Positions 39,801 through 42,800 of a DNA stretch of 64,000 nucleotides are shown here, in pieces; the first letter of the stretch is position 1; the number at the start of each line of letters is the position of its first letter. The stretch lies in the NCBI RefSeq assembly GCF_057098645.1, contig NZ_CM169472.1; one strand, given 5' to 3'. The position numbers were made by a program.

Positions 39801-42800
39801 TGGCACTCCAGCTCATCACGCTGCGTAAGCAAAGAGACGAGGTGGCGCTTGAGGTAGAACAGCGAGTTCTTGCTCACCCTCTTTACCCGGTCCTGACCAG
39901 TATGCCCGGAGTCGGTGTCAGGACCGCAGCCAGACTCCTCACCGAGGTCGCCTGCCGCGCCTTCGCCTCTGCCGCACATCTCGCTGCTTATGCTGGCCTT
40001 GCGCCGGTAACTCGGCGATCCGGCTCGTCAATACGCGGTGAGCATCCCTCGCGACGGGGTAATAAAGCTCTCAAACGGGCGTTGTTCCTGTCGGCCTTCG
40101 CCGCGCTCAGGGATCCGCTCTCCAGGGCTTACTACACCCGCAAAATGAGTCAGGGAAAACGACACAATCAGGCGCTTATCGCCCTGGCGAGACGACGCTG
40201 CGACGTTCTGTTCGCCATGATGCGCGACGGGACTTTTTATACCCCGCAGGCGTCATAACATGCTTGACAACTTAATAGGGGCACCCCCCTTCTGGCAACT
40301 GGCGCACAGTAGCGCAGACAATTTTCCTGCACTGACGGTCAGCCATTTTATTACCGCCAATCTGCTCCCGGTGATGCTGGGTAATATTATCGGCGGTGCA
40401 GTGCTGGTGAGTATGTGTTATCGGGCTATTTATTTACGTCAGGAATCCTGAAAAATCAGCCCGGCGAAACAGTTCGTCGGGCTGAAGATTATTCTTGCGC
40501 TATTTGCCCATCGGGCCAGGCGTGGATCACGGCTTTGATCAGCGTCGCCAATGGAATGGCGAAGAATACGCCCCAGAATCCCCACAAACCACCGAAGATC
40601 ACCACCGATAAAATAATCACCAGCGGATGCAGGTTAACCGCTTCGGAGAACAACACCGGTACTAACAGATTGCCGTCAAGCGCCTGAATAATCAGATACA
40701 CCGCGAAACAGCTCCAGAATTCAGTGCCTGCACCAAACTGGAATAGCGCCACGCCAACCACCGGAATGGTCACCACAAATGCGCCAATGTACGGAATAAG
40801 TACCGAGAAGCCGACCAGCACCGCCAGCAGCAGCGAATAGTTCAGCCCAAAGAGCAAGAACCCCAGCCAGGTGGCGATCCCCACCACGATCATCTCCAGC
40901 ACTTTGCCGCGGATATAGTTGGTGATTTGTTGATTCATCTCCTTCCACACCTGTCCTGCCAGTCCACGGTTGCGCGGCAGCACCCGACGAACGGCGTTCA
41001 GCATCTGCTCTTTGTCTTTCAGCAGGAAGAAGACCATCAATGGCACCAGCACCAGATAGACGGCTATGGTCAGCAAACCGACCAGCGAGGCGAGGGAAAT
41101 TTTCACCACCGAATCGCCCATGGTCAGCATCCGACTGCGCATATTTTCGGCCATTGCATCAATAATGCCCGCATCCATTAACGCCGGATAGCGGCGCGGC
41201 AACGTGGCGGCAAAGTCAGAAAGCTTATTGAGCATCCCCGGCATATCGCGGATTAAGTAGATGCCCTGTTGCCAGGCGATAGGCAGTACCACGAACGCCA
41301 TCAGTAGCAATATACCGACGAAAACCACCAATACAATCGACGTCGCCCAGCGGCGGGAGCAGCCAATAGATTGCAGGCGCACGGTTGGCCATTCCAGCAA
41401 ATAGGCCAGCACAATAGCCACCAGCAACGGAGCAAGCAGGCCACTAAAGAAAAAGATAATGCCAAATCCGGCAACTAAAATAACCAGCAAGGCAATCGCT
41501 TCCGGGTCGCTAAAACGGCGGCGATACCATTGCATCAACATTTCGAGCATAAAGACCTTCCCTGAACCTCAAGAGCGGGATTGCGATCAGCAATTGTATC
41601 GAAATGTCACAAAAAAGACTTCGCTTTTTATGACGGATTCAGGAAACTGAAAAGTCATTTGAGTGGGCTAATCTTCGCCGTTACACTCAAAGGCGGCGCG
41701 GTGGGAACGATATTTCACAGTATCGGTCAAATGACTATCTTCAGAAATACAGGATAGAGGTTATGTTCAGGCAGTTGAAAAAAAACCTGGTTGCAACCCT
41801 CATTGCTGCTATGACCATTGGTCAGGTAGCCCCGGCATTTGCCGACAGCGCAGACACCTTGCCGGATATGGGAACCTCCGCAGGAAGCACGCTTTCCATT
41901 GGTCAGGAAATGCAGATGGGCGACTATTATGTCCGCCAGCTACGCGGCAGCGCGCCGTTAATTAATGACCCGCTGTTAACGCAATATATTAATTCGCTGG
42001 GGATGCGTCTGGTTTCGCATGCCAATTCGGTTAAGACACCGTTTCATTTTTTTCTGATCAACAACGACGAAATTAACGCCTTTGCTTTCTTTGGCGGCAA
42101 CGTGGTGCTGCACTCTGCCCTGTTCCGTTATTCCGATAACGAAAGTCAACTGGCTTCAGTTATGGCGCACGAAATCTCCCACGTCACCCAACGTCACCTG
42201 GCGCGAGCGATGGAAGATCAGCAGCGCAGCGCGCCGCTGACCTGGGTCGGCGCGTTAGGTTCTATTTTACTGGCGATGGCCAGTCCGCAGGCGGGGATGG
42301 CGGCGCTGACCGGTACACTGGCGGGAACGCGTCAGGGGATGATCAGTTTCACCCAGCAAAATGAACAGGAAGCGGACCGCATTGGTATTCAGGTGCTGCA
42401 ACGCTCGGGATTCGATCCGCAGGCGATGCCAACCTTCCTCGAAAAATTACTCGATCAGGCGCGTTACTCCTCGCGCCCGCCGGAAATTTTACTGACTCAC
42501 CCGTTGCCGGAAAGTCGTCTGGCAGATGCCCGCAACCGTGCTAATCAGATGCGCCCGATGGTGGTGCAGTCGTCGGAAGATTTCTATCTGGCGAAAGCGC
42601 GCACACTGGGGATGTATAATTCCGGACGTAACCAGCTCACCAGTGATTTGCTGGATGAATGGGCGAAAGGAAACGTTCGTCAGCAACGAGCAGCACAATA
42701 TGGTCGTGCTTTACAGGCGATGGAAGCCAATAAATACGACGAGGCGCGTAAAACGCTGCAACCGTTACTGGCGGCAGAACCTGGCAACGCATGGTATCTC

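What the first reader, a model, noticed from the sequence alone, without database searches (positions are those of the whole stretch)
40264..40283. Perfect -35 hexamer at the IS right end, poised to form a junction promoter on circularisation
TTGACA lies at 40264..40269, 14 bp from the right IS end and facing outward. Joining the right end to the left end in an excised circle would place it about 17 to 18 bp upstream of TACTTT in the first bases of the left end, a TAnnnT -10 match. IS110-family circles are known to assemble a strong promoter this way. In the inserted state this -35 also points into the focB 3' fragment and toward the perM terminus.
Basis: inference. Interest (0 to 1): 0.5.

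Follow-up and report, generated by a model that had tools for sequence, protein, structure and literature searches.

The report
Split promoter of insertion sequence ISEc20
The TTGACA lies at the outward-facing right end of an ISEc20 (IS110-family) mobile element inserted in focB, and is most likely the -35 half of a promoter that is completed only when the element's two ends are joined in a circle; this trick is already known for the family, so the finding is real but ordinary.

Summary
TTGACA is at 40264-40269, 14 bp inside the right end (A40283) of a 1449/1450-bp ISEc20 copy (38834/5-40283) that splits focB in an E. coli O145 genome. TACTTT is at 38837-38842, bases 3-8 of the left end.

One TTGACA means nothing by itself: the window holds 10, against 36 expected by chance. 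The support comes from relatives. All 52 distinct right ends from Burkholderiales and Actinobacteria keep TTGAC 12-13 nt from the terminal CA. This is true whatever the last codon is, and also where the end lies 300-700 bp from the stop codon. All 55 left ends keep TAC-Y-W-T, and 50 of 55 have a purine 7 nt further on, just before the 5' hairpin of a bridge RNA.

The joined ends give a 17-bp spacer (bridge-RNA donor guide, two empty sites) or 18 bp (one or two empty sites). At 17 bp the layout equals the validated IS621 promoter. Natural head-to-tail tandems have 19-21 bp and probably arose by slippage between flanking C tracts.

The inserted copy has no complete promoter, and the -35 faces CCC. 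It is a new member of a known kind, of low to moderate interest.

The parts
38835..40283 (+). ISEc20 copy (IS110 family), 1449 bp from GTTAC to GGGGCA, or 1450 bp if C38834 is counted. It is inserted in focB in the same orientation as focB.
   Evidence: The same sequence with different flanks is found at more than 10 sites in E. coli. RefSeq names it ISEc20. focB is uninterrupted in 4274 other genomes.
40264..40269 (+). TTGACA, the proposed -35 hexamer of the junction promoter, in the right end.
   Evidence: Sequence. TTGAC is present in 52 of 52 distinct right ends of relatives, 12-13 nt before the terminal CA. It is kept regardless of the last codon and in elements whose right end is displaced from the stop codon.
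40270..40283 (+). Last 14 nt of the right end (ACTTAATAGGGGCA). AATAGGGG(CA) is the left-donor sequence matched by the bridge-RNA donor loop.
   Evidence: The guide segment at 38959-38969 (AATAGGGGTCA) has the same sense. In relatives the guide changes together with the end (GGGACA, AGAGGCA variants).
40284..40289 (+). C6 tract of the target on the right flank. In the inserted state it occupies the place where a -10 would be needed.
   Evidence: Six C residues is the commonest right flank in the family.
38829..38834 (+). C6 tract of the target on the left flank. The last 1-2 C residues correspond to the shared 'core'.
38837..38842 (+). TACTTT, the proposed -10 hexamer (TAnnnT) in the left end.
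   Evidence: T, A and the final T are invariant in 55 left ends, while the two positions before the final T vary. The TAC overlaps GTTAC, which the donor guide GUAAC (38997-39001) recognises.
38849..38849 (+). Predicted transcription start (A), 7 nt after the -10.
   Evidence: Inference. This column is a purine in 50 of 55 relatives. In IS621 the bridge RNA starts 7 nt after its -10.
38850..38864 (+). 5' hairpin of the bridge RNA (CCCC-TTATAAT-GGGG). Its loop holds a perfect TATAAT at 38855-38860.
   Evidence: Fold. An equivalent hairpin is present in relatives, with a different sequence in actinobacterial ones.
38875..38939 (+). [quoted passage not shown] Outer stem 38875-38884 / 38930-38939; left target guide ACTGCCCCC at 38892-38900; right target guide GGGGGG(TG) at 38916-38923.
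   Evidence: The outer stem covaries. The guides match the C-tract flanks of the copies.
38944..39025 (+). [quoted passage not shown] Left donor guide at 38959-38969; right donor guide GTAACGTGG at 38997-39005.
   Evidence: The outer stem covaries. The left guide covaries with the right end, and the right guide is invariant and complementary to CCACGTTAC.
39062..40258 (+). Transposase/recombinase gene, 398 aa.
   Evidence: DEDD_Tnp_IS110 E=1.4e-48 and Transposase_20 E=3.7e-21. Distant match to the IS621 and ISCro4 structures.

Best explanation
The hexamer is the -35 half of a split sigma-70-type promoter carried by ISEc20, an IS110-family element that uses a bridge RNA.

Inserted state. The -35 (right end) and the -10 (TACTTT, left end) lie 1.4 kb apart, and each faces non-promoter DNA. 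The -35 faces the C tract that the element always targets. Bridge RNA and recombinase are therefore made only weakly or by read-through.

Joined state. When the recombinase joins right end to left end, as in an excised or copied-out circle, the sequence becomes TTGACA-N17/18-TACTTT. RNA polymerase then starts near A38849 and transcribes the bridge RNA (5' hairpin, target loop, donor loop) and the recombinase gene. These direct integration of the circle into a new C tract, which splits the promoter again.

Shown here: the sequences, their family-wide conservation, the bridge-RNA anatomy, and the absence of a complete promoter in the inserted copy.

Inferred: circle formation by this element, the exact junction (1 or 2 C residues), promoter activity, and the start site.
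For: 1. The element is an IS110-family member: RefSeq name and Pfam PF01548 plus PF02371. Durrant et al. cluster ISEc20 with IS110, ISBma3 and ISSfl4 and class it as having its non-coding RNA in the left end.

2. The -35 is conserved. 52 of 52 distinct right ends, found only by ATAGGGGCA plus a C tract, have TTGAC 12-13 nt before the CA. The 4-6 bases between them are variable. The base before TGA is always T although the last codon is GCT, CCT, ACT or CAT. ISEc20 itself stops 6 nt earlier yet keeps GCTTGACA. Microbacterium relatives, whose right end lies 300-700 bp beyond the stop codon, keep the motif at the end and not at the stop.

3. The -10 is conserved. It reads TAC-Y-W-T with T, A and T invariant in 55 left ends, and a purine lies 7 nt downstream in 50 of 55.

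4. The spacing fits. With the junction the donor guide predicts (GUAACGUGG pairs with CCACGTTAC, i.e. GGGGCA-C-GTTAC) the spacer is 17 bp in ISEc20, and 17 bp (13) or 18 bp (37) in 50 distinct relatives. Three relatives carry RE-CA-C-GTTAC directly (L037, L074, L121). Flank counts against empty sites give an overlap of 1 C at mrcB-hrpB and an O111 prophage site. They give 2 C at the tape-measure site (6 C in at least 637 records) and at dgcE, there only against a rare frameshifted 7-C allele.

5. The geometry equals a validated case. IS621 has TTGCAG-N17-TATTAT, with the -35 ending 13 nt before the core, the -10 starting 2 nt after it, and the RNA starting 7 nt after the -10. The promoter and transcript were shown experimentally (PMC11208160; PMC11208158).

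6. The left end encodes a bridge-RNA-like structure that starts right after the predicted start site. Two stem/internal-loop domains have 17 compensated pairs, and the guides match the flanks and ends.

7. The inserted copy has no promoter-like site in 38600-40600. The hexamers at the -10 and -35 partner positions are non-matching.
Against: - No circle, junction read or transcript end was available, so everything about function is inferred.
- TACTTT matches TATAAT at only 3 of 6 positions. By its stated criteria the simple consensus scan would reject the reconstructed promoter (it requires at least 4 of 6 in each hexamer). It would also reject the active IS621 promoter.
- T and A of the -10 lie inside GTTAC, which the donor guide reads, and nearby T38844-C38846 are also conserved. 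Left-end conservation is therefore not independent evidence for a -10.
- All true right-end-to-left-end joints found in nature have 3-5 C residues: 4 in E. coli tandems (one joint reads GGGGCCCCCGTTAC) and 3, 3, 3, 3, 4, 5 in metagenome relatives. These give spacers of 19-21 bp. If circles look like these joints the promoter would be weak.
- The empty-site counts disagree with each other (1 against 2), and C tracts are polymorphic or error-prone.
- ISPpu9 shows that an IS110-family element can lack a junction promoter.
Confidence: 0.7

Rival explanations
1. The real joined form carries 3-5 C residues, as in the natural tandems. TTGACA would then be 19-21 bp from TACTTT and the junction promoter weak or dead. 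Bridge RNA and recombinase would instead come from read-through from focB/hyf, or from the TATAAT at 38855-38860.
For: All 9 genuine right-end-to-left-end joints seen have 3-5 C residues. A perfect TATAAT lies in the 5' hairpin loop, with GATAAT/TACAAT in Burkholderia relatives. The IS is co-oriented with focB.
Against: The single-copy plasmid L126 and the tandem L009 have identical outer flanks, which excludes a second insertion as the origin of the tandem; slippage between the flanking C tracts is proposed instead (inference), so the joints need not report the recombinase product. The donor guide pairs best with a 1-C joint. TATAAT has no -35 or TG partner and is absent from the actinobacterial relatives, which still keep TTGAC and TAnnnT. 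This reading leaves the strict TTGAC conservation unexplained.
Confidence: 0.15
2. TTGAC is conserved because it is a DNA contact for the recombinase or another cis-acting signal of the right end, not a promoter element.
For: It sits at a fixed distance (12-13 nt) from the crossover region in every relative. No direct promoter assay exists.
Against: [quoted passage not shown] The motif is exactly the sigma-70 -35 consensus, and it is partnered by TAnnnT at 17-18 bp with a purine at +7.
Confidence: 0.08
3. It is an outward-reading promoter half that creates hybrid promoters with flanking DNA and turns on neighbouring genes in the inserted state (here, antisense to perM).
For: Its orientation is outward. 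Some IS families do this (general knowledge).
Against: The element's own target rule puts a C tract at the -10 position in essentially every copy. No promoter-like site is found. A terminator-like hairpin at 40456-40485 follows.
Confidence: 0.03
4. It is a chance hexamer, or a relic of the ancestral stop-codon context (GCT TGA C).
For: TTGACA is not over-represented in the window. In most relatives TGA within TTGAC is the stop codon.
Against: The motif is kept when the stop codon moves (ISEc20; Microbacterium relatives), and its first T is kept across four different last codons, including in high-GC genomes.
Confidence: 0.03

Closest known systems
IS621 (E. coli, IS110 family) junction promoter and bridge RNA (Durrant et al. 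2024, PMC11208160; Hiraizumi et al. 2024, PMC11208158)
   Same: The -35 is in the right end and the -10 in the left end, 2 nt after the core. The spacer is 17 bp, the RNA starts 7 nt after the -10, and the transcript begins with a 5' hairpin followed by a target loop and a donor loop.
   Different: The recombinase is only distantly related: phmmer E=1.2e-14 over the C-terminal domain only, 398 aa against 326 aa. Hexamer quality is reversed: ISEc20 has a perfect -35 and a weak -10, while IS621 has a weak -35 (TTGCAG) and a good -10 (TATTAT). The target is a C tract rather than a REP sequence, and the flanking core is CC/CT on the left against (A)C on the right, rather than CT on both sides. No experiment exists for ISEc20.
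ISPpu10 (Pseudomonas putida, IS110 family) minicircle junction promoter (PMC12288879)
   Same: A reporter assay shows a strong promoter at the circle junction, with the -35 from the right end and the -10 from the left end.
   Different: It is a different element, host and target. It was not compared at sequence level here.
IS492 circle junction (Perkins-Balding et al. 1999, cited as ref. 12 in PMC11208160)
   Same: It is an IS110/IS492-family element that excises as a circle, and is cited for reconstituting a promoter across the joined ends.
   Different: The paper was not read here. It concerns a different subgroup and host.
ISPpu9 (IS110 family, IS1111-like arrangement) (PMC12288879)
   Same: Same family, and it forms circles.
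   Different: Its junctions do NOT create a promoter; it uses a native Ptnp. This shows the feature is not universal and must be judged element by element.
Pjunc of IS3/IS30/IS21-family circles and tandem dimers (IS911, IS2, IS30; general knowledge, not checked here)
   Same: The logic is the same: an outward -35 in one end and an inward -10 in the other, assembled only when the ends abut.
   Different: Those are DDE transposases with terminal inverted repeats, and no guide RNA is transcribed.

Membership tests
IS110 family insertion sequence (IS110 subgroup, bridge RNA in left end) | [quoted passage not shown] | tested here: met
   E=1.4e-48 and 3.7e-21. Matches the solved IS621 and ISCro4 transposases.
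IS110 family insertion sequence (IS110 subgroup, bridge RNA in left end) | No terminal inverted repeats; a short shared core instead of a fixed-length target duplication | tested here: met
   The left end GTTACTTTATTCG and the reverse complement of the right end TGCCCCTATTAAG are not alike (read directly). Flanks share only 1-2 C residues.
IS110 family insertion sequence (IS110 subgroup, bridge RNA in left end) | Long non-coding left end encoding an RNA with two internal loops whose strands match the target flanks and the element ends | tested here: met
   A 227-nt left end. Consensus fold has 17 compensated pairs in the two outer stems. ACTGCCCCC and GGGGGG match the flanks; AATAGGGG.. covaries with the right end; GTAACG is complementary to the left end. 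No Rfam family matched.
IS110 family insertion sequence (IS110 subgroup, bridge RNA in left end) | Sequence-specific insertion | tested here: met
   All copies in E. coli and nearly all relatives lie in C tracts..CC|IS|CCCCCC.
IS110 family insertion sequence (IS110 subgroup, bridge RNA in left end) | Excision or copy-out as a double-stranded circle | not testable with these tools
   Only assembled genomes were available. Head-to-tail tandems exist but are not circles.
Junction (circle) promoter of an IS | Outward-facing -35 near one end | tested here: met
   TTGACA at 40264-40269, 14 nt from the end. Conserved in 52 of 52 relatives.
Junction (circle) promoter of an IS | Inward-facing -10 near the other end | tested here: met
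   TACTTT at 38837-38842, a TAnnnT match at 3 of 6 positions. T, A and T are invariant in 55 relatives, but the motif partly overlaps the guide-recognised GTTAC.
Junction (circle) promoter of an IS | 16-18-bp spacer once the ends are joined | tested here: inconclusive
   17 bp from the donor-guide match and two empty sites; 18 bp from one robust and one weak empty site; 19-21 bp in natural tandem joints.
Junction (circle) promoter of an IS | No complete promoter in the inserted state | tested here: met
   0 promoter-like sites in 38600-40600. Partner hexamers are non-matching.
Junction (circle) promoter of an IS | Transcription demonstrated from the junction | not testable with these tools
   No transcript or reporter data. 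No paper deals with ISEc20 beyond listing it.

The most novel reading that the evidence does not exclude
In the IS110-prototype clade to which ISEc20 belongs, donor and target do not share an identical core. Inserted copies carry a target-derived CC/CT next to the left end and a donor-derived (C)A-C next to the right end. The bridge RNA's right-hand guides read AC while its left target guide reads CC. If this asymmetry is real, and not a homopolymer artefact, natural copies would record integration by transfer of one (top) strand followed by replication, as a 2025 preprint proposes for another IS110 element. The element's C-tract targeting would also keep its conserved -35 permanently orphaned in every insertion, in hosts of two phyla.
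Probability: 0.3. Interest if true: 0.5.

Novelty: new member of a known kind. Interest (0 to 1): 0.3.

Why it matters
If correct, ISEc20 and its many relatives in Enterobacteria, Burkholderiales and Actinobacteria express their guide RNA and recombinase mainly from the joined-end form. This would explain why copies such as the one fixed in focB of the O145 lineage are stable and silent. It adds a distant, natural example to the IS621 paradigm, with a C-tract target. It also gives an exact construct to test (TTGACA-N17/18-TACTTT) for anyone who wants to use this clade's bridge recombinases. It does not change the understanding of the family.

Tried and rejected
- Rfam search of 38600-40500 at E up to 1 found no family, so bridge-RNA identity had to be shown by alignment and covariation.
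- Literature search for ISEc20 found only list mentions. The Durrant supplement gives only its cluster.
I rejected this because single-copy L126 and tandem L009 have identical outer flanks, the joints vary from 3 to 5 C residues across lineages, and the donor guide does not fit them.
- I tried several core models (CA, CC, CG, AC) against guides and flanks. None fits all sites. Empty-site counts split 1 against 2, and one discordant genome (RM12522-C8) also differs from the other O145 genomes by one base in the 291-nt focB left-junction query (position not checked), possibly a homopolymer error.
- The zinc-ribbon site (L130) gave no uninterrupted empty site.
- My first similarity query started 12 nt inside the element (38846) because of a counting slip. 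Coordinates were corrected, and this has no effect on the conclusions.
- TATAAT at 38855-38860 was considered as the real -10 and rejected, because it has no -35 or TG partner and is not conserved in actinobacterial relatives.

Full report
**What is there.** The window carries hyfR, then focB (from 38153), which is broken after codon 228 by a 1449/1450-bp insert. The remaining focB codons follow, then a hairpin, then the convergent perM/yfgO gene. The insert holds a 398-aa ORF (39062-40258) with the two Pfam domains of IS110-family recombinases. RefSeq annotates identical copies as 'IS110-like element ISEc20 family transposase'. 1119 of 5426 complete E. coli genomes hold a near-full copy. focB is uninterrupted in 4274 genomes. 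The focB insertion itself occurs in 23 genomes, essentially the O145:H28/NM STEC lineage.

**The ends.** More than ten copies with different flanks share the sequence from GTTACTTTATTCG... (G38835) to ...CTTAATAGGGGCA (A40283). Every copy is preceded by C residues and followed by a C tract, usually six. TTGACA is at 40264-40269, 14 nt from the right end, and TACTTT is at 38837-38842, bases 3-8 of the left end.

**Is it more than chance?** One TTGACA is not. The window has 10, against 36 expected.

I fetched 80 loci encoding relatives at 72-82% amino-acid identity from Burkholderiales, other Proteobacteria and Microbacteriaceae/Micrococcaceae. When right ends are located only by ATAGGGGCA followed by C residues, 52 of 52 distinct ends have TTGAC 12 or 13 nt before the terminal CA. 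The bases between are variable.

In most relatives TGA inside TTGAC is the stop codon, but coding does not explain the conservation, for three reasons:
- The preceding base is always T although the last codon is GCT, CCT, ACT or CAT.
- ISEc20 stops six bases earlier and still has GCTTGACA.
- Microbacterium relatives with 300-700 bp between stop codon and right end carry TTGAC at the end, not at the stop.

At the left end, 55 distinct sequences read CGTTAC-Y-W-T. The T, A and final T of TAnnnT are invariant, the two bases before the final T are variable, and a purine lies seven bases downstream in 50 of 55.

**What the promoter would transcribe.** From about A38849 the left end folds into three parts:
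- a short 5' hairpin (38850-38864);
- a stem/internal-loop domain (38875-38939) containing ACTGCCCCC and GGGGGG(TG);
- a second such domain containing AATAGGGG(T)CA and GTAACGTGG.

In an alignment of 34 relatives the two outer stems have many compensatory changes: 17 of 48 predicted pairs. The first pair of segments matches the C-tract flanks. The third segment changes together with the right end in relatives (GGGACA, AGAGGCA variants). The fourth is complementary to the left end. This is the bridge-RNA architecture described for IS621 (PMC11208158). Rfam has no model that detects it.

**Spacing.** The spacer between TTGACA and TACTTT equals 16 plus the number of C residues left between GGGGCA and GTTAC. 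Three lines of evidence bear on that number.

(a) The right donor guide GUAACGUGG is invariant in the family and pairs contiguously with CCACGTTAC. That corresponds to one C, a 17-bp spacer in ISEc20, and 17 bp (13) or 18 bp (37) in 50 distinct relatives. Three relatives carry right-end-CA-C-GTTAC directly, followed by unrelated DNA (L037, L074, L121). In L121 the left junction also reads CA-C-GTTAC.

(b) Counting C residues on both flanks against uninterrupted sites gives the following.

| Site | Left C + right C | Empty site | Shared C |
|---|---|---|---|
| Phage tape-measure gene | 5+3 | 6, in at least 637 records | 2 |
| mrcB-hrpB spacer | 1+6 | 6, in seven of the eight best records (two read directly, the rest inferred from match length) | 1 |
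| O111 prophage site | 3+6 | 8 in most sampled records (two read directly, the rest inferred from match length), 7 in some | 1 or 2 |
| dgcE | 3+6 | 7, in a frameshifted allele | 2 |

focB and rtcB give no clean answer.

(c) True head-to-tail joints found in nature have more C residues. Two E. coli strains have 4 C (one joint reads GGGGCCCCCGTTAC), and metagenome relatives have 3, 3, 3, 3, 4 and 5.

A single-copy plasmid and its tandem derivative have the same outer flanks (3 and 6 C residues). The tandem was therefore not made by a second insertion. Slipped pairing between the two flanking C tracts explains both the variable joints and the odd 'empty' alleles. I therefore take 1-2 C residues (17-18 bp) as the recombinase-made junction, with real uncertainty.

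**Comparison with a validated case.** I recovered IS621 from an E. coli genome. Its ends give TTGCAG-N17-TATTAT. The -35 ends 13 nt before the CT core, the -10 starts 2 nt after it, and the published bridge RNA starts 7 nt after the -10. [quoted passage not shown] With one C, ISEc20 has the same layout: 13 nt, a 2-nt core (AC), 2 nt, the -10, then 6 nt before +1. ISPpu10 has a reporter-verified junction promoter. ISPpu9 has none, so the feature is common but not universal.

**Inserted state.** The consensus scan finds no promoter-like site between 38600 and 40600. The hexamers 15-20 bp downstream of TTGACA are CCCCCT to TTCTGG. Those 15-20 bp upstream of TACTTT are ATTCGC to TTGCCA. Because the element always lands with a C tract on its right, the -35 is orphaned by the target rule itself.

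**Verdict.** The weak points are the 3-of-6 match of the -10, its overlap with a guide-recognised sequence, and the unresolved number of C residues. The mechanism is already known for the family, and ISEc20 is a new, distant example.

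Noticed in passing
window 38829-38834 and 40284-40289; L001-L004, L125-L130: ISEc20 and its relatives insert only in C tracts. The two bases before CGTTAC on the left are CC (sometimes CT), while the right end is always followed by CA-C.... The left target guide (C5) and right target guide (G6) of the bridge RNA are complementary to each other, and the consensus fold pairs them.
   Followed up: partly
L009 (1863-1900), L010 (411-450, 1863-1900); L099, L108, L113, L114, L116, L123: Natural head-to-tail tandems (double and triple) of ISEc20 and relatives carry 3-5 C residues between the copies. 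In L108 the two copies differ in sequence. Single-copy L126 has the same outer flanks as tandem L009.
   Followed up: partly
L006 (focB, 6 C), L093 (dgcE, 7 C), L131 (mrcB-hrpB, 5 C): Some strains close to IS-bearing ones have shortened or frameshifted C tracts at otherwise empty insertion sites. These could be excision or slippage footprints, or homopolymer sequencing errors. RM12522-C8 is discordant at two sites.
   Followed up: partly
L013-L092: Recombinases 72-82% identical to the E. coli one occur in Burkholderia/Paraburkholderia/Duganella and in Microbacterium/Arthrobacter/Leucobacter. Their ends and guide segments are nearly identical, which points to recent cross-phylum spread. Durrant's supplement puts ISEc20 in the cluster of IS110 itself.
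   Followed up: partly
L037 2414-2450; L074 2447-2480; L121 (reverse strand) 249 and 1822: In three relatives the right end is followed by C-GTTAC(+2-5 left-end bases) and then unrelated DNA. In L121 an 11-nt CACGTTACCTT flanks both sides. These look like insertions into sequences that mimic the element's own left end.
   Followed up: partly
window 38855-38860: A perfect TATAAT lies in the loop of the 5' hairpin (CCCC/GGGG). Burkholderia relatives have GATAAT or TACAAT there, and actinobacterial ones have a longer hairpin without it. No -35 partner is present.
   Followed up: partly
L008 1750-1850 (E. coli O145:H28 RM12581/RM13514): An 81-bp tandem duplication covers the last ~55 nt of the IS plus 26 nt of flank. 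It gives two TTGACA-bearing right ends and a longer annotated transposase ORF.
   Followed up: no
H88-H92 (e.g. L012 401-450): A solo fragment identical to window 38846-38895 (bases 13-62 of the left end) lies next to a truncated Rz gene and an IS3-family element in several unrelated E. coli genomes.
   Followed up: no
L045, L055, L057, L073, L074, L092: Microbacterium-type relatives are 1770-2157 bp long, with 300-700 bp of extra DNA between the recombinase stop codon and the conserved right end.
   Followed up: no
window 40260-40451: An ATG inside the right end (ATGCTTGACA) opens a 63-codon frame that runs in frame into the focB 3' fragment. This is probably fortuitous.
   Followed up: no
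L011 901-1898 (E. coli O26:H11 FWSEC0001 and others): A truncated IS110-family element, 87.5% identical to query bases 1-1005 (window 38846-39850; left end and the 5' two-thirds of the gene), sits between ISL3 and IS3 remnants near iha. It is a diverged sister of ISEc20.
   Followed up: no
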